DNA of 51,238 nt, from contig JANNSF010000175.1 in the NCBI GenBank assembly GCA_031402315.1, forward strand, positions 1-51,238, read 5' to 3'. The notes beneath the pieces were generated by a model. It saw only the letters and a list, made by a program, of their open reading frames with translations, did not search any database and was not told where the DNA came from. Positions within the stretch are counted from its first letter, which is position 1; each line of letters starts with the position of its first letter. Shown piece by piece: positions 1-51,236 of the stretch. Both the position numbers and the translations under genes were made by a program. This DNA comes from a bacterium (lineage in GTDB: Bacteria > CLD3 > SB21).

Positions 1-683
1 ATTTTTGGAATAACTATATATATGGCGATACGGATGAACTATTCTTACCTGTGCAAAATTTTTCGGGTGAAACCAATATCATTCTTTCTTTTGATGTTGC
101 TTATGCCCAATACAACGGGACTTCGGATGACAAACTGAGTGTGATGACGTCTACAAACTGTGGCGCTACATGGACGAGTGTGTATTCAAAGCAAGGGGCT
201 GTGTTGACAACCGCGCCTTCTAATTCTACAAGTACTTTTTTGCCCAATGCAACGCAATGGCGCAGAGATACAGTTTATTTGAATGCATTGGCCAATCAAA
301 CTTTTGTGCTGGTAAAGTTTTCGGCTATTGCAGGTTATGGCAATAATCTATATCTGGATCATGTTAATCTTGGTAAACCCGGCACTACCGGAACCACTAC
401 CTCAGTGAGTGAAATCAATAGAAATACCATTAGCTGTCAATTATTCCCTAACCCAAGTTCCAACATAACTGCACTTTCTGTCCATTTATCACAAAATGAA
501 TCTATTGAAATTACAATTCTCAACAGTATAGGGCAATTGGTCTATTCTTCAAAAAACAACAGCCTTTTTGTCGGGTCCAATACCATTCACATTAATACTG
601 AAGCTTGGGCGGCGGGAGTTTATGTGGTGAATGTATCCAGTTCAAAAGCTATAGTAAATACCAAATTAATAATTGAAAAATAA
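1..683 (+). CDS. Secreted protein, 5'-truncated by the window edge, ending in a type IX secretion (Por) C-terminal sorting domain
   Basis: Frame 3 is open from nt 3 to the stop at 681-683, so the GTG at 51 in the ORF track is not the true start. The last ~80 aa (LFPNPSSNITALSV..ITILNSIGQLVY..GVYVVNVSS..KLIIEK) fit the T9SS C-terminal domain pattern. The upstream part is Ser/Thr/Asn-rich and looks beta-rich. Confidence 0.7.
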   Translation, partial: FWNNYIYGDTDELFLPVQNFSGETNIILSFDVAYAQYNGTSDDKLSVMTSTNCGATWTSVYSKQGAVLTTAPSNSTSTFLPNATQWRRDTVYLNALANQTFVLVKFSAIAGYGNNLYLDHVNLGKPGTTGTTTSVSEINRNTISCQLFPNPSSNITALSVHLSQNESIEITILNSIGQLVYSSKNNSLFVGSNTIHINTEAWAAGVYVVNVSSSKAIVNTKLIIEK

Positions 684-819
684 CTTTACGAAACGTTAGA
701 TACAAGAGCTAACAATTGGATTAACCATTAAACCCTGAACAGACCGTGGAGAAATTCAACAGTCTACGATGTAAGTGTTTGTTTGAACGGCTTGGTTACT
801 TCTTGCGAACTTTTGAGTT

Positions 820-1389
820 TTAAACCTTAAGCAGGCCACGGAATCCCCTGCCAGCATAATACGATTCGGCCCCGTTGTGATACACAAAAACGGTTCCATA
901 GCGAAAATCAGCGAAGATCGCCCCGCCTAACTTTCTAATTAAAGCTGGTGCTTTTACCCAACTGGATGTTTTTGTATCAAACTTTCCAAACTTTTGCAAT
1001 GCGCGATATTGCTCTTCCGTTAATAACTCAATACCCATTTCGGCGGCCATACCCTCAGCACTGGCTTTAGGTTTATTTTCTTTTCGTGAGTCAAGTGCTT
1101 CTTGATCGTAGCATATACTTCTGCGACCTATAGGGCTTTCATCCGAACAATCATAGAAGGTGTACTCGTCTGTTTTTTTATCATACGCCACCACATCAGG
1201 TTCTCCACCCGTTTCCTCCATTTTATGAAGTGACCACATTTTTTGAAAATTTGCTTTTAGTTTAGCTTCCAATTTAAGCCATTCAATCCCTTCATGACGC
1301 TTCCCATTTTTTTCAAAACGAATCTTTAACGTATTGAGCAGTTCTTCGCGTTGTTTTGGAAGCAACTCTTTTTTACTTGTCTTTGCCAT
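820..1389 (-). CDS. DUF4256 family protein (function unknown)
   Basis: The 189-aa ORF matches, over nearly its full length, the DUF4256 pattern as I recall it (WSLHKMEETGGEPDVV, YDCSDESPIGRRSICYD, MGIELLTEEQYRALQ, DTKTSSWV, VFVYHNGAESYYAGRGFRG). AT-rich. Confidence 0.7.
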   Translation of the reverse strand: MAKTSKKELLPKQREELLNTLKIRFEKNGKRHEGIEWLKLEAKLKANFQKMWSLHKMEETGGEPDVVAYDKKTDEYTFYDCSDESPIGRRSICYDQEALDSRKENKPKASAEGMAAEMGIELLTEEQYRALQKFGKFDTKTSSWVKAPALIRKLGGAIFADFRYGTVFVYHNGAESYYAGRGFRGLLKV

Positions 1390-1529
1390 ACTGTTTTTAT
1401 ATTCTAATATCTTGTATTGAGTAAAAATTAATTCATCAACTTTATCAAACCGTGTCTGATTTAGAGGGGGTTAGACTTTGAACCGCCACTTTTGCCAAAC
1501 CCGTGTTATAGGCTGCCCTTCTTGTCTGT

Positions 1530-2021
1530 TTATTTCATTTTGTTAAACATATAACGGCTTATTTTCCATTGTCCGTCCACCTTTCGAAGCACAAACAATT
1601 CTCTGTTTTCTTCTGGAACTGTCTGCCCGTTTGCGTGAATAAGTGTTGTGCCTTTTGAAGTTGTCCTTGCAAACGCATAGTCGCCATCAACGACAATTTC
1701 GTCAATGAAAAACTCAATATGCAATTGAATGGTTTTAAATACAAATTCATAAGAACCCTTTATCTGTTCCTGTCCACTTGCGGAAGGTCCGTTTGAAGGC
1801 ATAAATACACCGTCTTGAGTATAAAGCGGTAATACTTGAGCAACATTGGAAGCATTTAGTGCGTCACGGTATGAGAATAACATTTTCTCAATGGCTTGTT
1901 TTTCTGTTGTTGTAGTCATTTCTGTTTTGTTTTTATTACTATCAATTGATTGTTTTTCTGTATTGTTTTGGCAACTCGTAGCAAGTATGAGCAGAACCGC
2001 TGGAATAATTATTTTTTTCAT
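1530..2021 (-). CDS. NTF2-fold (SnoaL/DUF4440-like) lipoprotein
   Basis: A lipoprotein-type signal (MKKIIIPAVLLILATSC) is followed by a ~120-aa region typical of NTF2-like/DUF4440 proteins (..YRDALNASNV..LYTQDGVFMP...DGDYAFAR...ENRELFVLRKVDGQWKISRYMFN). Confidence 0.6.
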   Translation of the reverse strand: MKKIIIPAVLLILATSCQNNTEKQSIDSNKNKTEMTTTTEKQAIEKMLFSYRDALNASNVAQVLPLYTQDGVFMPSNGPSASGQEQIKGSYEFVFKTIQLHIEFFIDEIVVDGDYAFARTTSKGTTLIHANGQTVPEENRELFVLRKVDGQWKISRYMFNKMK

Positions 2022-2094
2022 TTTCTTATTGATTTAATTACGTTGTAAAGTTGAGTAATTGTTATAGCCAGTGCATTTAGCAACATTATTTACG

Positions 2095-2787
2095 TTAATT
2101 TTTTTCATTATTGATAGCAGGTCGTATACCATAAATTAGCAAATAACCAATCATCCAAAATTCTCCAACTGTCGCAGGTATAACAAGGATATCTGAATAC
2201 GGACTATGAACTCCTGCGCAGATAATAAAGGTCTGCAAGATGTATCCTATTCCACCAATAAATAGTATTCGTCCGAGCCAAACAGGCATTCTTCCTGAAC
2301 TGATTACAATAGCCCCCATTGGCATTAGCCAAAGTCCAAAGAAAAGACCACCAACTGACCAAGCATTTGTGATTAGTTGCCCTAATAGTTGCATCATTAT
2401 TGCTTTCTCTTGTAAATTCGGCAAAGATGAATTAGCAATCTCAATGGCAGAGTTCATCGCTATTGCACTAACCACAATTACAACAGCGTTAACTGTTCCC
2501 CAAATTCCAAGTATAGAGGCCGCCCATTTGTTTATTTCACGAAACAGTCTATAAAACCATACTGCGGCAAGTGCTTGCGAAACAACAATAAGCAACTCAA
2601 ATAGAAGTCTCACTCTTGAAGTTGTCTCAAGCTCAGTTAAATTTGTCAACGTTTTTTGAGGGTCGCCAGAAACGAAAATCTGTGGGTGAAAAATTAGAAA
2701 TCCCAAAATCCCAGAAATTGCCAAGATCAAATACCACAAACCTGTAAGTCTTGCAGTCTTAATTAATTGTTTTTGTTCCATTGTCAT
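2095..2787 (-). CDS. DUF4386-like integral membrane protein
   Basis: The 230-aa ORF has about 6 hydrophobic helices. The N-terminal pattern (ARLTGLWYLILAISGILGF...DPQKTLTNL) recalls DUF4386. No enzymatic motif was seen. Confidence 0.55.
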   Translation of the reverse strand: MTMEQKQLIKTARLTGLWYLILAISGILGFLIFHPQIFVSGDPQKTLTNLTELETTSRVRLLFELLIVVSQALAAVWFYRLFREINKWAASILGIWGTVNAVVIVVSAIAMNSAIEIANSSLPNLQEKAIMMQLLGQLITNAWSVGGLFFGLWLMPMGAIVISSGRMPVWLGRILFIGGIGYILQTFIICAGVHSPYSDILVIPATVGEFWMIGYLLIYGIRPAINNEKN

Positions 2788-2812
2788 TTTTCCGTTTGTT
2801 TACTGTTTAATT

Positions 2813-2921
2813 GCATTGGCTATAGCGTTTTGCAGATTTGCGATGGGCGGGATTTTCACCACTGAACTTTATGCGGAGCACGAAACCCCGCCTATTGCAA
2901 ATGTGCTGTTATAGCCAGTGC
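2813..2921. repeat. 109-bp imperfect palindrome with GCAYTGGCTATARC termini (attC-like or MITE-like element)
   Basis: The left arm at 2813-2851 is gcattggctatagcgttttgcagatttgcgatgggcggg. The right arm at 2886-2921 has reverse complement gcactggctataacagcacatttgcaataggcgggg. The arms align with a few mismatches and indels, and the central spacer is about 34 nt. Confidence 0.65.
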
Positions 2922-4062
2922 TTCTTGTCATTTGTCGCCAAAGTTTGATGATGCACCCTTGTTTCATTTTTCCGTCAAGCACAAGTCCAACTGCCTTTTT
3001 CAAGTCGTCAAGTGGAATTGAGTCAGTTTTCCAGCCGTAAGGATATGTAATGTGTGAACTTGTTTTTTTGTCTTTTTCGCAGAGTATATGTTTGGCTCCG
3101 TCTGGTAATTGGGTGGTCTTTTCAACCATAAAAGTCCGTTCTACTTTATCTCCTGCTTTAGTTAGCAAATAAACTTTGTAAGAAATGTCTAAACTTTCTT
3201 TTGGGTCAACGAGATATTTGTAAACTGTCATTTTCTGTCCGCCCCATTCATACTCGTCAATTGCTACATTTTTATATTTCATATCGTCTTCAGAAAGTTG
3301 GTTATTGTTGTAAGCAACTTTCATTAGTCCTAAGATGCTGTCAGCCTTTACATATTCTTTAGCACCATTGTATGACTTGATTAGTTTAGGATAATATTCA
3401 AAGTCCTTGGGATTAATGTTTATTACTTGCGAATAAGCCTTGGCAGATTTCAAATAGTCTTTTGTAAATGTGTATTCAAGTTGTCCGATAGTTTGAAGGG
3501 TTGTTAAATAGTAGCTATTTGTTTTCGGAACGTTGTCCGCTGCTTCGTAAAATAATGTCAACGCTTTTGCGAATTCCTTTTTTTCGTGATAGATGTGGGC
3601 TACCCAAAAGAATGGCTCACCAAAAGTATTTGGAAGTTTCTTAGCTTCTTCAAAGACTGCAAGTGCTTTGTCCTGCTGCCCTTGATAGTAAAGGATAAGT
3701 CCTTTCTCATTTACAAACTCCTGATTTGTCGACTCTTTTTTTATTGCACTTTCAATTTCTTTCATTGCCTCGTCATACTTTTTAATGTAACGAAGTGAAA
3801 GTCCTTTATAAAAGTGAACTGAACCATTGTCAAGTCCTTTTGAGATTGCTTTGTCGTAAAACTCAATTGCTTTGTTGTCGTTTTCGAGTTGGAAAAATGC
3901 GAAGCCTACCATATACAATTCGTCAGGCGTTAGTTTGTCCGCTTTACTCTCAAGTTTAATAAGGTCTTGATAATTCTTGTTGTTGTAAAGTTCTGTTGCA
4001 GTCTGTCCGTATGAAAACGAATAGAGCAAAACTGTCAAAATGAATGTCGCTGTTTTTCTCAT
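2869..4062 (-). CDS. TPR-repeat protein with N-terminal signal peptide
   Basis: Signal peptide MRKTATFILTVLLYSFSYGQ, followed by several 34-aa TPR-like units (A..FY.KAI..., G.SL.Y.KKYDEA...). The last ~18 codons run into the palindromic element at 2813-2921, so the true C-terminus is uncertain. Confidence 0.6.
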   Translation of the reverse strand: MRKTATFILTVLLYSFSYGQTATELYNNKNYQDLIKLESKADKLTPDELYMVGFAFFQLENDNKAIEFYDKAISKGLDNGSVHFYKGLSLRYIKKYDEAMKEIESAIKKESTNQEFVNEKGLILYYQGQQDKALAVFEEAKKLPNTFGEPFFWVAHIYHEKKEFAKALTLFYEAADNVPKTNSYYLTTLQTIGQLEYTFTKDYLKSAKAYSQVININPKDFEYYPKLIKSYNGAKEYVKADSILGLMKVAYNNNQLSEDDMKYKNVAIDEYEWGGQKMTVYKYLVDPKESLDISYKVYLLTKAGDKVERTFMVEKTTQLPDGAKHILCEKDKKTSSHITYPYGWKTDSIPLDDLKKAVGLVLDGKMKQGCIIKLWRQMTRSTGYNSTFAIGGVSCSA

Positions 4063-24447: not shown

Positions 24448-24513
24448 CAATGAGCAATGAACAATGAACAATGAGCAATGCGTTCTTTGTTGGTCATTGC
24501 TCATTGTTCATTG
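24448..24513. repeat. Heptamer tandem repeat (CAATGAR x4.7) forming a 19-bp perfect hairpin immediately upstream of tRNA-Lys
   Basis: 24448-24480 reads caatgag caatgaa caatgaa caatgag caatg. 24495-24513 (cattgctcattgttcattg) is the exact reverse complement of 24462-24480. The loop is 14 nt, and the tRNA begins 5 nt after the right arm. Confidence 0.7.
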
Positions 24514-45679: not shown

Positions 45680-46519
45680 TTACAATTCAAATGAATCAAA
45701 CGGGCTTTTAACTCTGGATTTAGAAGCATCCGTAATATGCGTATAAATTTCAGTAGTCCGGATCGATTGATGCCCCAATAAATCTTGAATATATCTAATG
45801 TCGGTCCCGTTTTCCAATAGGTGTGTCGCAAAACTGTGGCGAAGGGAATGAACACTCGCCTTCTTCGCTATTTTGGCGCGTTGTAGGGCTTGCTTAAAGA
45901 CCAATTGGACACTTCGTGCGGAATAGACCTCATTGTTTTGACCTTCAAACAGATAGTCTTTAGGCCGGTATGCTTCGTAGTAACTTCTTAAGAGGACCAG
46001 AAGGTTCTCAGACAGCATGACCTCTCGATCTTTCTTTCCCTTCCCGTTTTCGATACGAATCCTCATACGTCCGCTATCGATACACGCGAGCTTCAGTTGA
46101 ATACACTCCGATAGTCGCAGTCCGGCGCTATAGATCAGCGCAAGTATCGTTTTGTGCTTGAGGTTCTCGGTCAATTGAATTAGTTTTTGAATATCTTCTT
46201 TGGATAGCACATGAGGTAATTTTGATTCTGTTCTCTTGGGATAAAGATGTTTTAGATCAAACCGGATATGGAATACTTCTTTATAAAATAGTGCGATGGT
46301 TGCGACTAATTGTTTTTGATAGCTTTGAGAAATTTTTTTATGTTCAACACAGTACAAGATGTATTTTTCGATTCGATTGATGGGTATCTCCTTAGGGTCT
46401 ATACCCTTAAAATCTTTAATCAAAACAGCGATGGCACTCAGGTATGTGCGAATACTATTAGGACTGTAGCGAAGAATAATCAGGCGCTTTTCGAATTTGT
46501 CTATTTGAGGTTGAAACAT
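45680..46519 (-). CDS. Tyrosine site-specific recombinase (XerC/D-IntI-like clade, without the IntI-specific insertion)
   Basis: SAM-like N-domain (YSPNSIRTYLSAI). The catalytic residues appear in order: AGLRLSE (Arg), KGKKDREV, HSLRHSFAT (His-x-x-Arg), LLGH and EIYTH (Tyr). The tail is ..VKSPFD. The start is set at the ATG at 46519 (MFQPQIDKF); the ORF is open to 46594. Confidence 0.85.
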   Translation of the reverse strand: MFQPQIDKFEKRLIILRYSPNSIRTYLSAIAVLIKDFKGIDPKEIPINRIEKYILYCVEHKKISQSYQKQLVATIALFYKEVFHIRFDLKHLYPKRTESKLPHVLSKEDIQKLIQLTENLKHKTILALIYSAGLRLSECIQLKLACIDSGRMRIRIENGKGKKDREVMLSENLLVLLRSYYEAYRPKDYLFEGQNNEVYSARSVQLVFKQALQRAKIAKKASVHSLRHSFATHLLENGTDIRYIQDLLGHQSIRTTEIYTHITDASKSRVKSPFDSFEL

Positions 46520-46678
46520 AAAAACCTTCGTTAATCTGCCAAATTTAATACAATTAGCGAAGATAACAAAGGCAATATTAACGAAATTGCGCATAACTAG
46601 GCGTTACCAGTAATGCTATGACGACAGTGCAGACCATCAACGACAGAAAAAAAAATGAACAGACGAGCCAACGCTTCA

Positions 46679-46742
46679 GCAAAATCAAAAGAGCTGCAAC
46701 CCCACCCACAAGCCGACACAGTTGCAGCACATTTGATTTTGC
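46679..46742. repeat. Imperfect palindrome E1 (22-nt arms, 20-nt loop) in the integrase/helicase divergent intergenic region
   Basis: gcaaaatcaaaagagctgcaac (46679-46700) pairs with gttgcagcacatttgattttgc (46721-46742) at 20 of 22 positions, with two A-A mismatches. It is flanked by direct copies of CCAACGC at 46668-46674 and 46744-46750. Confidence 0.7.
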
Positions 46743-46776
46743 TCCAACGCACTATAAAATTTAGTAACCTTGTAAT

Positions 46777-49700
46777 ATGACAGATTTAGTTTTTTTAAAA
46801 GCATTAAGGGACAAACTCAAAGGTGGTAACACACGGTCAATTCATTTGAATGTGTTGCCAGGACGGTTTGCGACACGGCTTGACTTAGCTAATCTGAATT
46901 ACATCCGACCCGACTTTGCAGAAAAATTTCTTGACCAACTTTTGACCACCGCTTGTTTTGACTTCAAAATTTCTTTTGACGGAATTGATTTAAACTCCAT
47001 TCAGTCAGACGAACAAAAGCGACTTGGACTTTTATCAAAGCGGTTAAACTCTCTCAACATTGAAAATGAGGACAACTACAAAGAACACGGAATAAAAACT
47101 TTCGGTTTTGGTTTTCCTATTCTCATAAAGCCATCAAAGCAAGACCCGAAGAAAATTATTAAAGCTCCACTTTTCATTTGGCAGTTAGAAATAATCAAGG
47201 CGACAAACAAAGTCAACACGTGGTCAATCCTTCGCAACAAGACACGAAACGAAAACGGAAAAATTATTGACGAAGAAGTTCACTCTGTTGAACTAAACGA
47301 AGTATTACTTTCATTTTTAAAGACAGATGAGAGTATTTCTATTCCTCAAATAAATGAAGACCTTTTGGAAGATGCAGTGATTGACCAAAAGGAATTGATT
47401 GAAGAATGTTACAAAGTGCTGAAAGCACTTAACACAAACGCAACGACCAGCATCAAAGAAAGTTTGCTTGCGAAATTCAAAGAACCATTAAGAAACATTC
47501 CAGAATCATCAGCTTTGGAATCAGTTTCGGGCAATATCCCTTGGATACATTTTGGCGGAGTGTTCGGATTATTCCGAACACAAAAAGAAAGTATCATCAC
47601 CGACATTGATAAAATCATTGACAAGTTTGATGAATTTGATTTTGAAAATTTGGAGGTAGAGAATTTTTCGGGAACTGCACACAGTGCAGTTGAGACCGAC
47701 CCAAGCCAACAAGAAATTCTCACGACATTAGGAATTGAGCCAAAGAAAATAATTCAGGGTCCACCCGGAACGGGAAAAAGTCAATCGCTAACAGCACTTA
47801 TCACAAATGCTTTAGCGAACAATTTAAAATGCCTTGTTGTGTGCGAAAAGAAAACCGCACTTGATGTAATCAAAAACAATCTACACAGAGAGAACGACCA
47901 ATTAGGGGCATTGGCAGCAGTTGTTGAGGACATTAACAAAGATCGAGACGGAATAGTAAATTCTGTTCGTGACCGATTGGGCAACCTTTCACAATACGCA
48001 AGTTTCAATCAAACGAATTACACAACAGTTCGGGAAACAGTTGAAGTAAAAGCAGCAGAACTAAACCACCAACACAAACAACTTGACAAGAAAATTTATT
48101 TAGGCAAGTCGTGGACTGAATTAGTTGGTGAGTTTTTGAAACGACAAAAGGTTGCGGACTTTGAAACATTGAAACCGAAACTTGATTACAAGCAATTCAA
48201 GTTTCAAGAAGATGAAAAAGAACTTGCTGAAATCGTCAGCAGAATAAAAACAGCAAAGAAACTTTACGCTGATGTAAAGCGGCTTGACCATCCACTTGAA
48301 ATTTTAAGTGATGCAATTTTCAAAGAAGATAATCCGAGAGCCATTCAACTAAAGTTGGAAGAACTCTCAAAGGAGACAGCCAAACAACTTGAAGAAGTAA
48401 AAGCAGAACTGCAAAAAGAAATAACAGAATACCAAAAGTGGCTTGACAGCCACTTTGGTGAATATTATTTTGCAGTCAAGCAGCAAATCACCAACTACAA
48501 AGATTTTGTTGTTTCTAATCACGAACAGTTCGGAGAATTGTTTTTTAAGAATGACGGTTTTACAAAATTCCGAATACAAACGTTGAGTATTGTTTCCAAG
48601 CGTTACAAAATGCTGAAAGGAAACAGAATTACTTTAGTCAATCAGGTTGCAGAAATAAAGCAGGTTCATCAAACGCTAAAATATTTTGAACACAGTTACA
48701 TTGAAGGCAACCACACACCTACTCTCAAAGTTTTCGTTGACAACATTGATAAGTTAAGCGACCACACAGAAGAATGGTTTAAGAACAACGAAAAAGTTAA
48801 ACAAGATTATTTGCAAAACTTTTCTTCAAATTATTTGCATCCGCTTTTCACAGACAAAACAAGTTTGCAAAACACAGAGAAAAATTTTGAACAAATCATT
48901 TCTAATATCAATCAAGAGAAACTTTTAAGACGGACTATTTCTGACACAACAAATCACAATCAGAAAATTTCCGAAACGGAAATTTTACAAACAGAAATGA
49001 AGTCCATTTCTGCAAACCTTGAAGATTTCAGAGAGTATTTTGATTGGAGAAAGTTCTACATTGAACTTACTCCATTGCAACGGACAGTTGTAAGGTCAAT
49101 CATTGAAATCAATTGCAAGAATTGGGAAACAACTTTTGAAAGTTGGTATTACCATTGGTTGCTTGCAATTGCAGAAAGCAATTTGAAAGGTTTGCCGAAA
49201 AGTGATGACAAGATTGTTGAATTGGTTGAATCAAAAGAGCAACTGAAAAAATTCCAAATCAAAAGCATTATAAATAATTGGTCAGTCCGACAATTGCAGT
49301 CAGCAAAGAGAGCACAGACACAAGGAGTAAATCCAATTAGCTTATTCAACAAACGGGGAAGCAGAGGAGAACGAAGAAACTCTTTGAGAAAAATTATCAC
49401 AACAGATTTTCAACTGTTCACTGATTTTTTTCCAGTAGTAATGTTAAGCCCGACAGTTTGCAGTTCTGTAATTCCATTAGCCGAAGGAATTTTTGATGTC
49501 GTGATTTTTGACGAGGCAAGTCAGTTGAGATTAGAAGATACCTTTCCTGCATTGCTTAGAGGAAAAATAAAAGTTGTTTCAGGCGACAGCCAACAAATGC
49601 CACCGTCAAACTTCTTTCAAGGCGGAACAGCTTTGCTAAGTCCGACAGAAGAAGATTACGATGAAGAACAAACAGCAAGTGAATCACAAACACCATCATC

Positions 49701-51159
49701 AAATCGTAATGCAAACAATTCTCTTGACCTTGCAGACAGCGAATCGCTTTTGGTTTATGCAGAGAACTGCAATTACAAGCAATCCTATTTGAAGGTTCAC
49801 TACCGTTCACAGCATCCACACTTGATTGACTTTTCTAATCATGCTTTTTATGGCAAGCGACTTATTCCAATGCCAGCGAAACAGGAATACAAACCAATTC
49901 AGTTTATTGAAGTGAACGGACTTTACGAAGACCAAGTAAACAGAGACGAAGCAAGACAAGTAGTTGACATTTTACTAAATCACATCAAGCCATTTAAGAA
50001 TGGAAAATATCCGTCAGTTGGTGTAGCAACTTTCAATTTGTATCAGCGTAATTTAATCCTTGAAGAAATCACAAAGGCAAGACAACAGAAACCCGAATAC
50101 GATAAAAAGATTGCGGACTTAGGTTCTGATTTGTTCGTGAAAAATTTAGAGAATATTCAAGGTGATGAAAGAGACATCATAATTATCTCAACAACTTTTG
50201 GAAAGAAAGCAGACGGTTCTTTTCGCCAATCGTTTGGACCGATTTTGCAACGCAACGGCTACAAACTTTTGAATGTAATTGTAACAAGAGCAAAGTATAA
50301 AGTTTTTGTATGCACTTCTATTCCGCAAGAGCATTATAACTCTTATCCAGTTCTGTTACAGCAAATGAAGAATAATGGCAGAGCCATTTTCTATTCTTAT
50401 TTGGCTTATGCCAAATCGGTAAGTGAAAATAATCTTGAAACAAAAGAATCGTTGCTAAAGCAACTCTATGAAAATTGCGAATCAAAAACTTTTGAAATCG
50501 ACCATGATGTTTACGGTTCGGAATCTCCATTTGAAGAAGAAGTTTATTACCGACTTGCTGAAAAAATTGGACAAGACCGTTTGCAACAGCAATATAAAAT
50601 CGGTGGTTTCAGAATTGATTTAATTGTGAAATCAAAAGTTACAGGCAAACCAATCATTGCTATTGAATGTGACGGAGCAAAGTATCACAGCAGCAATGAA
50701 GCGTATGCTTGGGATATGTTCAGACAATCACGACTTGAAGAACAGGGTTTTACTTTTTACAGAATATGGTCAACTAATTGGTGGTATTCAGTAGAGAAGG
50801 AATTGAAAAAAGTTGTTGCGTTTATTTCACAAGTTGACAAAGAAGAAAAGCAAGAAGATATTCTTCCACTTGACGAAGTTTTGAAAGTGAATGAAATTGT
50901 TCCAATCACTTTGCGACCAGAGACGAAAAGAAAGGTTTCGTTTGCTTCAACTGTTACAGTAAAGAATCCCGAAGGGAAAATTTTGAAAGTAAAATTTAGC
51001 AAGACACAAGCAACACAAAATGTAAAACCCGACAGCAACGGAATGATTACAGTTTATGAGAAAGCACCTTTAGCAGTTGCGATTATGAATAGAACAGAAG
51101 GCGAAGCATGTCAGTTGGGAATGTTAGAACTCTATTATGAAATATTGAAAGTAGAATGA
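46777..51159 (+). CDS. Giant DUF4011 / Upf1-like SF1 helicase fused to a DUF559 (Vsr/PD-(D/E)xK-like) nuclease domain and a Gre-like C-terminal tail
   Basis: Walker A GPPGTGKSQ (nt 47758-47784), VIFDEASQL (from 49501), GDSQQMPP, HYRSQH, QGDERDIIIIS and LNVIVTRAK. A ~580-aa insertion separates Walker A from the DEAS box. The nuclease-like block is FRIDLIV..IAIECDGAKYH..FYRIWSTNWW. The N-terminal ~300 aa are DUF4011-like (GIKTFGFGFPILI...APLFIWQLEI). Confidence 0.85.
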   Translation: MTDLVFLKALRDKLKGGNTRSIHLNVLPGRFATRLDLANLNYIRPDFAEKFLDQLLTTACFDFKISFDGIDLNSIQSDEQKRLGLLSKRLNSLNIENEDNYKEHGIKTFGFGFPILIKPSKQDPKKIIKAPLFIWQLEIIKATNKVNTWSILRNKTRNENGKIIDEEVHSVELNEVLLSFLKTDESISIPQINEDLLEDAVIDQKELIEECYKVLKALNTNATTSIKESLLAKFKEPLRNIPESSALESVSGNIPWIHFGGVFGLFRTQKESIITDIDKIIDKFDEFDFENLEVENFSGTAHSAVETDPSQQEILTTLGIEPKKIIQGPPGTGKSQSLTALITNALANNLKCLVVCEKKTALDVIKNNLHRENDQLGALAAVVEDINKDRDGIVNSVRDRLGNLSQYASFNQTNYTTVRETVEVKAAELNHQHKQLDKKIYLGKSWTELVGEFLKRQKVADFETLKPKLDYKQFKFQEDEKELAEIVSRIKTAKKLYADVKRLDHPLEILSDAIFKEDNPRAIQLKLEELSKETAKQLEEVKAELQKEITEYQKWLDSHFGEYYFAVKQQITNYKDFVVSNHEQFGELFFKNDGFTKFRIQTLSIVSKRYKMLKGNRITLVNQVAEIKQVHQTLKYFEHSYIEGNHTPTLKVFVDNIDKLSDHTEEWFKNNEKVKQDYLQNFSSNYLHPLFTDKTSLQNTEKNFEQIISNINQEKLLRRTISDTTNHNQKISETEILQTEMKSISANLEDFREYFDWRKFYIELTPLQRTVVRSIIEINCKNWETTFESWYYHWLLAIAESNLKGLPKSDDKIVELVESKEQLKKFQIKSIINNWSVRQLQSAKRAQTQGVNPISLFNKRGSRGERRNSLRKIITTDFQLFTDFFPVVMLSPTVCSSVIPLAEGIFDVVIFDEASQLRLEDTFPALLRGKIKVVSGDSQQMPPSNFFQGGTALLSPTEEDYDEEQTASESQTPSSNRNANNSLDLADSESLLVYAENCNYKQSYLKVHYRSQHPHLIDFSNHAFYGKRLIPMPAKQEYKPIQFIEVNGLYEDQVNRDEARQVVDILLNHIKPFKNGKYPSVGVATFNLYQRNLILEEITKARQQKPEYDKKIADLGSDLFVKNLENIQGDERDIIIISTTFGKKADGSFRQSFGPILQRNGYKLLNVIVTRAKYKVFVCTSIPQEHYNSYPVLLQQMKNNGRAIFYSYLAYAKSVSENNLETKESLLKQLYENCESKTFEIDHDVYGSESPFEEEVYYRLAEKIGQDRLQQQYKIGGFRIDLIVKSKVTGKPIIAIECDGAKYHSSNEAYAWDMFRQSRLEEQGFTFYRIWSTNWWYSVEKELKKVVAFISQVDKEEKQEDILPLDEVLKVNEIVPITLRPETKRKVSFASTVTVKNPEGKILKVKFSKTQATQNVKPDSNGMITVYEKAPLAVAIMNRTEGEACQLGMLELYYEILKVE

Positions 51160-51169
51160 CCCAACGCAT

Positions 51170-51236
51170 TTGGTGGCACATTTGTATTTTTTTCAACGCA
51201 CAGACCAAAGCTAAAAAAATCCAAAAGAGCCACCAA
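51170..51236. repeat. Imperfect palindrome E2, related to E1 but with the two arm types in swapped order, at the very end of the window
   Basis: ttggtggcacatttgtattttt (51170-51191) pairs with aaaaatccaaaagagccaccaa (51215-51236) at 19 of 22 positions. It shares GCACATTTG(T)ATTTT and AAAATC(C)AAAAGAGC with the E1 arms, including the same A-A mismatch pattern. Confidence 0.7.

What the first reader, a model, noticed from the sequence alone, without database searches (positions are those of the whole stretch)
45680..51159. Integrase-linked 1,460-aa DUF4011 / Upf1-like helicase fused to a DUF559-type nuclease: candidate single-gene immunity or anti-mobile-element module
The ORF at 46777-51159 has four parts, N to C. 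(i) A ~300-aa DUF4011-like region. (ii) An SF1B/Upf1-like helicase core (GPPGTGKSQ, DEAS, GDSQQMPP, HYRSQ, QGDERDIIIIS, VTRAK), with a ~580-aa charged, probably helical insertion between Walker A and motif II. (iii) A DUF559/Vsr-like PD-(D/E)xK block (IAIECDGAKYH, about nt 50600-50800). (iv) a Gre-like tail, reported separately. The gene is divergent from a tyrosine recombinase. It lies in DNA much more AT-rich than the adjacent pgl/tsaE operon: hand counts of single 60-nt lines gave 30-42% G+C inside the gene against 53-58% in sampled core lines. It has no Shine-Dalgarno, although several core genes do. It is bounded by repeats and the contig end. Helicase-plus-nuclease polypeptides of this helicase clade underlie known defence systems: Nhi, and Mokosh, which pairs a related helicase with a PLD nuclease. 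To my knowledge this particular domain order is not a named system.
Basis: partly seen in the sequence, partly recalled or inferred. Interest (0 to 1): 0.8.

Follow-up and report, generated by a model that had tools for sequence, protein, structure and literature searches.

The report
Hhe-like defence helicase-nuclease in integron cassette
The 1,460-residue helicase-nuclease is real and belongs to a catalogued family of candidate anti-phage proteins related to Hhe; what is unusual is that it travels as a very large (about 4.8 kb) integron-type gene cassette, inserted next to a short integrase that lacks the domain thought to define integron integrases.

Summary
The ORF at 46777-51159 and its four-part architecture are confirmed: a DUF4011-like N-terminus, an SF1B/Upf1-like helicase with a ~460-aa helical insertion, a Vsr/DUF559-type (REase_MTES_1575) nuclease, and a GreA/B C-terminal-domain-like tail. 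All catalytic motifs are conserved across relatives. PADLOC assigns the protein to candidate system PDC-S37 (3e-143), and the same domain order is that of the known single-gene system Hhe. It scores well below the NCBIfam cut-offs for Hhe and ProA, so it is a sister family, not a member. There is no conserved partner gene, contexts vary even among 88-100% identical copies, and defence genes are frequent neighbours. All this fits a stand-alone defence gene. The integrase linkage has a specific explanation. The gene is an integron-type cassette that begins at a G|TT junction (46603/46604) with an attI-like site 84 nt from the recombinase start. The same cassette (91-99% DNA identity) sits in at least six other arrays, bounded by attC-like hairpins. 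The window ends before its own attC. The integrase is IntI/XerA-like but lacks the IntI-specific domain, and relatives of it show cassette turnover at the same junction. Function is inferred, not shown.

The parts
45680..46519 (-). Short IntI/XerA-like tyrosine recombinase, 279 aa from Met26. The mechanical ORF extends to 46594, but that start lies 9 nt from the cassette junction.
   Evidence: Pfam Phage_integrase 5e-42 plus SAM_4. NCBIfam XerA_Arch/integron integrase 211 bits (cut-off 220) and TIGR02249 integron integrase 204 (cut-off 265). Best PDB match is VchIntIA 2a3v (3e-36), but IntI4 residues 180-246 face only 24 residues here. The catalytic R, HxxR, H and Y motifs align. Relatives are 274-283 aa.
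46520..46603 (+). attI-like region between the recombinase start and the crossover G|TT (G46603 | T46604). It contains three TTAACGAA / TTCGTTAA repeats.
   Evidence: The window and L008 (integrase 77% identical) are alike up to ...GGC-G|TTA and then diverge. Of 226 pairs of related integrase loci, 128 break at a GTT in both members.
46604..46776 (+). Cassette leader that travels with the gene. It holds a 23-bp-arm hairpin at 46678-46743 and a sigma70-like promoter TTGATT-16-TAAAAT at 46733-46760. There is no Shine-Dalgarno.
   Evidence: DNA homology to L001, L005, L088, L089, L090 and L172 begins at 46588-46612. Hairpin. Promoter-like site. The leader recurs before another cassette in L168.
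46777..47676 (+). N-terminal DUF4011-like domain (aa 1-300).
   Evidence: Pfam DUF4011 scores 18.6 bits here and hits 28/33 distant members. phmmer finds 293 representatives, nearly all 1200-1650 aa. AF2 gives pLDDT 76 and pTM 0.71 with no PDB fold match.
47698..47976 (+). Helicase RecA1 first part with Walker A (aa 308-400).
   Evidence: AAA_11 hit; GPPGTGKSQ invariant; SMUBP-2 match.
47977..49356 (+). Low-Pro/Gly, charged insertion of about 460 aa inside RecA1 (aa 401-860), probably a helical or coiled-coil arm.
   Evidence: P+G 3.9% against 8-10% elsewhere. Longer relatives have paired insertions at aa 554 and 692. Covered by the PDC-S37 model from aa 450.
49357..50331 (+). Helicase motifs II-VI (aa 861-1185), the rest of RecA1 plus RecA2.
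   Evidence: AAA_12 3.6e-16; DEASQ, GDSQQMPP, HYRS, QGDERD and TRAK invariant.
50512..50841 (+). Vsr/DUF559-type PD-(D/E)xK nuclease, REase_MTES_1575 (aa 1246-1355).
   Evidence: Pfam 6e-28. E1253, D1281, E1297, D1299 and H1304 conserved. Foldseek: I-Bth0305I 3r3p and NGO0050 3hrl, TM 0.74.
50899..51156 (+). GreA/GreB C-terminal-domain-like tail (aa 1375-1460).
   Evidence: Foldseek: Rnk 3bmb 5e-4, Gfh1, GreA and GreB, about 80 residues at rmsd ~3.3 A. Pfam GreA_GreB hits 8/33 family members, best 5e-9. Absent in a subgroup and deleted in L001.
51170..51236 (+). Downstream hairpin (24-bp arms) related to the leader hairpin. The cassette's own attC would begin about 146 nt after the stop, beyond the window end.
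   Evidence: In L088 the attC lies at stop+146..+277 and ends CAAAAC|GTTACCAC.

Best explanation
The ORF encodes an apparently active single-polypeptide helicase-nuclease of the PDC-S37 family, a sister of Hhe and ProA. Its most likely role is stand-alone defence against phages or other invading DNA. It is carried on a ~4.8-kb integron-type gene cassette captured at the attI-like site of a chromosomal integron-like platform in an uncultured FCB-group bacterium. Proposed mechanism, all inferred: the DUF4011 N-terminal domain and the long helical arm sense or hold a nucleic-acid or protein cue of infection; the Upf1-like SF1B motor uses ATP to translocate 5'->3'; and the C-terminal Vsr/DUF559-type endonuclease nicks or cuts DNA, destroying the invader or stopping the cell. 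The Gre-CTD-like tail probably docks the enzyme on RNA polymerase, coupling surveillance to transcription. The gene has its own promoter-like leader. It is moved between arrays by site-specific recombination at G|TT, presumably by the neighbouring short IntI/XerA-like recombinase acting on hairpin-forming attC-like sites.
For: Family: PADLOC PDC-S37 3e-143, Hhe 1e-69, MkoC/MkoA. All 33 distant members hit PDC-S37 and Hhe. NCBIfam ProA 463 bits and Hhe 320 bits. Activity: all helicase and nuclease motifs are invariant or >=90% conserved down to 29% identity, and the nuclease and Gre folds are supported. Stand-alone and mobile: 88-100% identical copies have unrelated neighbours. Among 120 flanking ORFs in 31 loci, no Pfam family recurs more than 4 times. 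Neighbours include type I R-M, NA-iREase, SIR2, RelA/SpoT, KAP NTPase, Wadjet JetABCD, SoFic, a DRT and several PDCs. Copies at 89-98% identity are binned to different phyla. G+C is 36.4% against 43.9%. Cassette: homology with seven other contexts starts at the same GTTACCAG and ends at attC-like sites. The cassette start is the complement of its own R''. The attI junction is shared with L008. attC-like sites are enriched upstream on the opposite strand, 72 in 312 kb against 0-1 per 45 kb background. L013 has co-oriented ORFs between sites, and arm pairs covary. Hhe is an experimentally used single-gene helicase-nuclease defence (10.1101/2024.10.10.617714), and integron cassettes are known to carry defence systems (10.1101/2024.07.02.601719).
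Against: No member of this subfamily has been tested; PDC-S37 is only a candidate. Scores are far below the Hhe and ProA equivalog cut-offs. Only a minority of neighbours are recognisable defence genes, and I ran no matched control for enrichment. Most family members are not in cassettes. The recombinase lacks the IntI-specific domain held to be essential for attC recombination, so its activity on these sites is unproven. The window itself holds no attC. Pairing is partly built in, because sites were selected for arm complementarity. The mechanistic roles of DUF4011, the arm and the Gre-like tail are conjecture.
Confidence: 0.62

Rival explanations
1. It is a housekeeping DNA repair or replication helicase-nuclease of the Dna2/AddAB or very-short-patch-repair type, as some sources annotate it ('very-short-patch-repair endonuclease').
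For: JGI names relatives 'very-short-patch-repair endonuclease'. The nuclease fold is Vsr/DUF559-like. In P. aeruginosa a large DUF4011 gene is a conserved core flank of a defence hotspot (PMC10250203).
Against: Near-identical copies lie in unrelated contexts and in different phyla. There is no conserved synteny. The gene sits in a mobile cassette, has atypical G+C and a patchy distribution, with only 293 representatives among 1.84 billion.
Confidence: 0.05
2. It is primarily an anti-plasmid or inter-element competition factor, or an addiction-type function that stabilises the cassette array, rather than an anti-phage system.
For: It is carried by a mobile platform alongside IS elements, metal-resistance and ABC-3C-type conflict genes. 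One copy neighbours Wadjet, an anti-plasmid system. Helicase-nuclease fusions can target any invading DNA.
Against: The closest characterised relative, Hhe, is assayed as anti-phage, and NCBIfam labels the ProA and Hhe families anti-phage. There is no antitoxin-like partner.
Confidence: 0.15
3. The integrase adjacency is coincidental: a Xer-like recombinase of some other element lies next to an island, and the repeats are unrelated palindromes such as REP-like elements or terminators.
For: The recombinase lacks the IntI-specific domain, and Cury et al. [quoted passage not shown] No other helicase copy has it nearby. The window contains no attC.
Against: The junction lies 84 nt from the recombinase start at a G|TT. 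Groups of loci with 99-100% identical recombinase-proximal DNA diverge at exactly that point into different cassettes, with 128/226 pairs at GTT. Sites are enriched on the expected side and strand, and cassette boundaries are identical in seven contexts.
Confidence: 0.1

Closest known systems
PADLOC phage-defence candidate PDC-S37 (single-gene candidate, PADLOC-DB v2)
   Same: The strongest profile match (3e-143, 477 bits, aa 450-1382 on model positions 487-1363 of 1550). All 33 distant family members match it, best 1e-146. Single gene with no conserved partner.
   Different: It is a candidate only. I found no paper describing or testing it. Two separate matched stretches suggest divergence in the N-terminal third.
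Hhe (single-gene helicase + Vsr-type endonuclease defence; NCBIfam NF042953 'DUF4011 domain-containing anti-phage protein Hhe')
   Same: Same domain order: DUF4011, SF1 helicase (AAA_11/AAA_12), Vsr/DUF559-like nuclease, in a single gene. PADLOC Hhe 1e-69 over aa 862-1353.
   Different: Only the C-terminal third aligns. It scores 320 bits against a cut-off of 2000. It is about 350-450 residues shorter than the Hhe models (1797-1911 positions), has a Gre-CTD-like tail, and its DUF4011 is only remotely similar.
ProA (NCBIfam NF058533 'anti-phage protein ProA')
   Same: The best NCBIfam hit: 463 bits, aa 615-1433 on model positions 998-1781 of 1903.
   Different: Far below the 1500-bit cut-off. 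I could not find the source publication, so nothing can be said about its mechanism.
Mokosh (MkoA/MkoC) and Nhi
   Same: Related Upf1-like SF1 helicase core (MkoC 9e-25, MkoA 2e-21); the general helicase-plus-nuclease logic.
   Different: No PLD nuclease domain and no Nhi hit in PADLOC at E<=0.1. The nuclease is Vsr/DUF559-type and C-terminal.
Integron gene cassettes carrying defence systems (BRiCs; sedentary chromosomal integrons as defence biobanks)
   Same: A promoter-proximal cassette next to a divergent tyrosine recombinase, crossover at G|TT, hairpin attC-like sites, co-oriented arrays, and IS110-type insertions. Defence cargo is known in integrons.
   Different: The recombinase lacks the IntI-specific domain. 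The cassette is about 4.8 kb, whereas a 4-kb attC spacing was inferred to be immobile in Vibrio. The host is FCB-group rather than Proteobacteria. The cassette carries its own promoter-like leader.

Membership tests
Hhe | N-terminal DUF4011 domain | tested here: inconclusive
   18.6 bits against a cut-off of 22.2 in this protein, but 28/33 distant family members hit DUF4011, best 4.6e-9.
Hhe | SF1 helicase core with intact motifs | tested here: met
   AAA_11 and AAA_12 hits; motifs I-VI invariant.
Hhe | C-terminal Vsr/DUF559-type endonuclease | tested here: met
   MTES_1575 6e-28 and DUF559 21.3 bits; fold match to 3r3p/3hrl; catalytic E/D/E-x-D/H conserved.
Hhe | Reaches the NCBIfam equivalog score (2000 bits) | tested here: not met
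   320.1 bits, aa 820-1374 only.
Hhe | Protects against phage when expressed | not testable with these tools
   Needs an experiment.
PDC-S37 (PADLOC candidate) | Significant match to the PDLC05009 profile | tested here: met
   3e-143, 477 bits; 33/33 relatives. PADLOC's own coverage rules were not applied.
PDC-S37 (PADLOC candidate) | Single-gene system without an obligate partner | tested here: met
   No recurrent neighbour among 120 flanking ORFs in 31 loci.
ProA | Reaches the NCBIfam equivalog score (1500 bits) | tested here: not met
   463.5 bits.
Mokosh | PLD-family nuclease (MkoB, or fused in MkoC) | tested here: not met
   No PLD domain in the Pfam scan. Only the helicase core matches MkoA/MkoC.
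Integron (canonical) | Integrase carries the IntI-specific additional domain around patch III | tested here: not met
   IntI4 residues 180-246 face 24 residues here. TIGR02249 scores 204 against 265. Relatives are 274-283 aa. The intI_Cterm profile itself could not be run.
Integron (canonical) | attI site next to intI where cassettes are inserted at G|TT | tested here: met
   Junction at 46603/46604. Relatives with identical proximal DNA carry different first cassettes from the GTT onward.
Integron (canonical) | Cassettes end in imperfect-palindrome attC sites (R''-L''...L'-R') | tested here: met
   Met in related loci. The window ends before this cassette's attC. IntegronFinder's attC model was not available.
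Integron (canonical) | Recombinase-dependent excision and integration of cassettes | not testable with these tools
   Inferred only, from the same cassette occurring in seven or more contexts.
GreA/GreB | C-terminal globular domain | tested here: met
   Foldseek Rnk/Gfh1/GreA/GreB, E 5e-4 to 2e-3, prob 1.0. Pfam is below cut-off here.
GreA/GreB | N-terminal coiled coil with an acidic tip that reaches the RNAP active site | tested here: not met
   Only the ~80-residue C-terminal domain aligns, so this is not a transcript-cleavage factor.

The most novel reading that the evidence does not exclude
The neighbouring ~279-aa recombinase represents a large FCB-group (Bacteroidota/Ignavibacteriota) family of integron-type platforms whose integrases lack the I2/IntI-specific domain, yet which show abundant natural cassette turnover at an attI-like G|TT junction and arrays of structured attC-like sites. 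These platforms can mobilise cassettes as large as 4.8 kb carrying complete defence genes. This would be either an ancestral-like or a secondarily simplified integron. It would contradict the view that the extra domain is essential for cassette recombination.
Probability: 0.4. Interest if true: 0.75.

Novelty: new member of a known kind. Interest (0 to 1): 0.55.

Why it matters
For the protein, this adds an intact, compact, Gre-tailed representative of an untested candidate defence family (PDC-S37). It comes with natural controls: a tail-less allele at 99% identity, and both cassette and non-cassette copies. That makes it a convenient entry point for asking how Hhe-like helicase-nucleases sense infection and whether RNA polymerase docking is involved. 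For mobile-element biology, it shows a full-size defence gene moving as a ~4.8-kb cassette between arrays and across phylum-level bins. It also points to integron-type platforms run by integrases that lack the domain used to define, and computationally detect, integrons. Such platforms would be missed or labelled CALIN by standard tools. They bear directly on how single-strand attC recombination evolved (PMC7790495, abstract seen).

Tried and rejected
(1) The source publications for ProA and PDC-S37 were not found in the held library; one search was wasted by prefix matching. (2) The sequence search of the PDB found only the Walker A region of SMUBP-2. (3) The fold search of the N-terminal domain gave no credible match (best E 0.025, prob 0.06), so its fold remains unassigned. 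(4) Rfam found nothing for the 170-nt element or any attC-like site in L001/L005. (5) An exact-sequence look-up of the long form of the integrase ORF was not on record; the 279-aa form is the one gene callers use. (6) Cluster look-ups and an AccD search did not name the host. (7) CAACGC, which looked repeated around the gene, is not enriched in the window (23 found against 26.5 expected). (8) I considered that the leader hairpin at 46678-46743 is a degenerate attC and rejected it, because its AAC/GTT lie on the loop side and not the outer side (read). (9) I considered that the integrase mobilises the gene as a classical integrative island and rejected it, because homology with other copies stops at the G|TT junction and never includes the integrase. 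(10) I did not use a covariance model for attC-like sites, because the variable loops align poorly; I used a custom scanner with shuffled controls instead.
Full report
OBSERVATION. The window contains an uninterrupted ORF at 46777..51159 (+), 1460 aa. It is divergent from a tyrosine-recombinase ORF at 45680..46594 (-). Pfam places REase_MTES_1575 at aa 1252-1350 (6e-28), AAA_12 at 989-1179 and AAA_11 at 309-507, with DUF559 marginally above cut-off. Scanned on their own, the N-terminal 320 aa give DUF4011 at 18.6 bits (cut-off 22.2), and the last 89 aa give GreA_GreB C-term at 20.5 bits (cut-off 26.9).

So are the nuclease residues E1253, D1281, E1297, D1299 and H1304. At 29-43% identity D1299 is still invariant, and D1281, E1297 and H1304 are at least 90% conserved.

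The G+C dip is real but modest. The ORF is 36.4%, the adjacent operon 42.4% and the rest of the window 43.9%, and no equal-sized window elsewhere is as low. The gene lacks a Shine-Dalgarno, but so do most neighbours; only pgl has a clear one. Two related hairpins flank the ORF at 46678-46743 and 51170-51236, and the window ends 79 nt after the stop.

WHAT THE PROTEIN IS. PADLOC's library gives PDC-S37 at 3e-143 (477 bits), Hhe at 1e-69, and MkoC/MkoA for the helicase core. NCBIfam gives 'anti-phage protein ProA' at 463 bits (cut-off 1500) and 'DUF4011 domain-containing anti-phage protein Hhe' at 320 bits (cut-off 2000). The protein is therefore related to both named families, is a member of neither equivalog, and falls in a family that PADLOC already lists as a single-gene candidate.

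A phmmer search of the N-terminal 310 aa against 1.84 billion representatives finds only 293 proteins, nearly all 1200-1650 aa. Of 33 distant members, 33 hit AAA_11/AAA_12, 32 MTES_1575, 28 DUF4011 (best 4.6e-9) and 8 GreA_GreB (best 5e-9). All 33 hit PDC-S37 and Hhe.

AlphaFold2 models are usable: C-terminal 276 aa, pLDDT 80; N-terminal 320 aa, pLDDT 76 and pTM 0.71. The tail matches the C-terminal domains of Rnk, Gfh1, GreA and GreB (E 5e-4 to 2e-3, about 80 residues, rmsd ~3.3 A). The nuclease matches the Vsr-like I-Bth0305I and the DUF559 protein NGO0050 (TM 0.74). The N-terminal domain has no solved structural relative, and no close relative has a solved structure.

The ~460-aa insertion in RecA1 is poor in Pro/Gly (3.9%). 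Longer homologues carry paired insertions at aa 554 and 692 (68+66, 29+73 aa). I read that as lengthening of both strands of an antiparallel helical arm; this is an inference. The tail is missing in a Flavobacterium/Alistipes subgroup. It is also deleted in one allele that is 99% identical over the aligned DNA (L001 compared with L168).

CONTEXT OF RELATIVES. The family is large, with over 2,230 proteins at E<=1e-10 among scored candidates. Copies at 89-98% identity are binned to Ignavibacteriales, Chitinophagaceae and Ferruginibacter. More distant ones occur across Bacteroidota, in several Patescibacteria, and in a few other bins. Binning of mobile DNA in MAGs is unreliable, so the cross-phylum claim is tentative.

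Neighbourhoods of copies at 88-100% identity are unrelated to each other:
- IS110 plus ABC-3C-type conflict genes, copper oxidase and MerT.
- KAP NTPase.
- Type I R-M, NA-iREase, RelA/SpoT and a 1178-aa SIR2 protein.
- Por-secretion proteins.
- Peptidase M1 and Mqo.

For 31 further loci I scanned the two nearest ORFs on each side, 120 proteins in all. No Pfam family recurs more than four times. PADLOC hits include a complete Wadjet (JetABCD), type I REase, SoFic (2), a DRT, and PDC-S02, S04, S69 and M62B. I ran no matched control, so 'enriched for defence' is suggestive only. 'No conserved partner and no conserved synteny' is solid.

WHY AN INTEGRASE IS NEXT DOOR. blastn of the window against these loci shows that homology starts at window 46588-46653, just beyond the recombinase. 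It runs to the window end and never includes the recombinase. In the window, L005, L088, L089, L090 and L172 the shared DNA begins at the same ...C-G|TTACCAGTAATGC; L001 begins ...CGTTAGTTAG at the same position. In L088, L089 and L090 that point is the 3' end of a preceding imperfect palindrome. In the window it follows ...CATAACTAGGC, 84 nt from the recombinase's probable start.

About 146-277 nt after the stop, L088 has a ~130-nt imperfect palindrome: CTACTGGTAAC...CCCGCAAAAC|GTTACCAC (DNA folding -25.9 kcal/mol top strand, -30.6 bottom strand). L001 has the equivalent site. The cassette's first bases (TTACCAGTAA) are the complement of its own distal arm (CTACTGGTAA), as expected for a unit that circularises at G|TT. 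The cassette is thus about 4.82 kb, and the window ends before its attC.

Similar sites recur in L001/L168 between co-oriented ORFs. In L005 every site is interrupted exactly at G|TT by an identical ~170-nt GC-rich element with no Rfam match.

THE RECOMBINASE. From Met26 it is 279 aa, the length gene callers use and that of its relatives. Its best solved-structure match is the Vibrio integron integrase IntI4 (2a3v, 3e-36). However, IntI4 residues 180-246 face only 24 residues here, while alignment to XerA (5hxy) is continuous. From memory, that IntI4 region holds the I2 helix and the residues that contact the extrahelical attC bases. NCBIfam scores it just below 'XerA/integron integrase' (211/220) and below TIGR02249 (204/265). 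The catalytic R, HxxR, H and Y motifs align. The field treats the extra domain as defining and essential. Smyshlyaev et al. note that it is 'not fully conserved' in their integron-like subgroup.

DOES THIS RECOMBINASE FAMILY RUN CASSETTE ARRAYS? I fetched 80 metagenomic loci encoding relatives at 43-77% identity. Many end within 100-350 nt upstream of the gene, as repeat-rich arrays would cause. A custom scanner for AAC...imperfect hairpin...GTT (40-170 nt) finds 0-1 hits per 45 kb in the window core and in shuffles. In the 80 loci it finds 72 hits upstream on the opposite strand (312 kb), 22 upstream on the same strand, and 35 downstream (347 kb). L013 has six sites with one or two co-oriented ORFs in each interval.

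The junction evidence is decisive. Among 226 pairs of loci whose similarity starts in the recombinase 5' end and then stops, 128 stop at a GTT in both members. Most of the others stop a few bases later, within similar cassette 5' ends. Groups with 99-100% identical proximal DNA carry different first cassettes (L020/24/25/27; L028/31/36; L068/75/76; L059/61; L047/60/62). The window pairs with L008 in the same way.

An alignment of 54 sites of the ~130-nt class shows compensatory changes at all 12 predicted arm pairs (for example AU 34/UA 20; AU 23/CG 20). Pairing is partly built in here, because the sites were selected for arm complementarity. The enrichment, orientation, spacing and conserved unpaired motifs do not depend on that selection.

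I conclude that the element is integron-type in architecture and dynamics, but fails one canonical membership criterion. Complete integrons have been reported in Ignavibacteriae and Chlorobi (PMC9024848). I could not run IntegronFinder's profiles, so I cannot say whether those are this family.

HOW COMMON IS THE CASSETTE FORM? Among 69 helicase loci from named genomes, only L088, L089, L090 and L143 show flanking attC-like sites, with weaker candidates in L116 and L127. None has this recombinase within 10 kb. Copies at 77-91% DNA identity (L091, L092, L093, L098, L103, L109) share only the ORF, give or take a few bases. The gene therefore exists both as a cassette and as a free island gene, as reported for other integron-borne defence genes. 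A 2026 preprint reports that cassette size limits recombination and inferred that a 4-kb attC spacing is immobile in V. cholerae. Here a 4.8-kb cassette occurs at 91-99% DNA identity in at least seven contexts.

MECHANISM. Shown: intact ATPase/helicase and nuclease motifs, supported nuclease and Gre-CTD folds, stand-alone distribution, mobility, and membership of a candidate defence family related to Hhe. Inferred: defence function; 5'->3' translocation, by analogy with Upf1-like SF1B helicases; DNA nicking or cleavage by the Vsr/DUF559-type domain; sensing by DUF4011 and the arm; and RNA polymerase docking by the tail, by analogy with Gre/Rnk/Gfh1 C-terminal domains. The leader carries a sigma70-like promoter (46733-46760) that would give a near-leaderless mRNA. 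For Hhe itself, the PhageMaP screen points to activation by the functions of T7 DNA-metabolism genes rather than by direct recognition. A similar indirect trigger is plausible here but untested.

VERDICT. The protein is a new member of a known kind. The added value is the context: a very large defence cassette at the attI-like site of an integron-type platform whose integrase lacks the IntI-specific domain. The host is an uncultured FCB-group bacterium that I could not name.

Noticed in passing
L005 1398-1599, 2155-2356, 4779-4980, 9662-9863, 14619-14820, 15345-15546 (also L006): An identical ~170-nt GC-rich element (ATGTGGCGCCATTCGGCGCCACAT...CCGGCGATCC) is inserted exactly at the G|TT crossover of all six attC-like sites of one array. 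It has no Rfam match. It could be a miniature attC-targeting element.
   Followed up: partly
L001 8445-9806; L168 8445-9806; L169, L170, L171: An IS110-family transposase sits between an attC-like site and the helicase cassette. This resembles the IS1111-attC elements that target integron attC sites (comparison from memory).
   Followed up: no
window 50853-51148 relative to L001 14063-14077: L001 carries a ~295-bp deletion that removes the Gre-like tail from an otherwise 99%-identical gene, while L168 holds the undeleted form in the same array. This is a natural tail-less allele.
   Followed up: partly
window 46602-46752 and L168 19940-20091: The cassette's 150-nt leader (hairpin plus promoter-like region) recurs at 77% identity in front of a different large cassette gene, a 1065-aa N6_Mtase/Eco57I/Methylase_S protein. 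It may be a reusable promoter-bearing leader.
   Followed up: no
L089 and L090 about 157 nt after the helicase stop; L172 9198-9581: The helicase unit keeps its R'' box (CTACTGGTAA) but the rest of the attC differs between arrays, so R'' also behaves as a recombination breakpoint.
   Followed up: partly
L010, L019, L028, L056, L068, L075, L076, L082 (downstream of the integrase match): attC-like sites also occur just downstream of several integrase genes on the opposite strand (26 hits). This suggests the integrase gene can itself lie within or between arrays.
   Followed up: no
window 48436-48438 and 48850-48852 (aa 554 and 692): Longer homologues have paired insertions at these two positions (68+66, 29+73, 58+149 aa), consistent with extension of an antiparallel helical arm.
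   Followed up: partly
L001/L168 5019-7601: The same array carries HNH_2/CTD11, MC6/MC7 and DUF2326 genes (ABC-3C-type conflict systems), a multicopper oxidase and MerT/HTH genes. The arrays mix defence and metal-resistance cargo.
   Followed up: no
window 24456-24512 (-): The only attC-scanner hit in the window core. It is a short perfect-looking hairpin (AATGAACAATGAGCAATG...CATTGCTCATTGTTCATT), more likely a terminator.
   Followed up: no
window 1-4000: This stretch is also AT-rich (36-39% G+C) relative to the window mean. I did not examine it.
   Followed up: no
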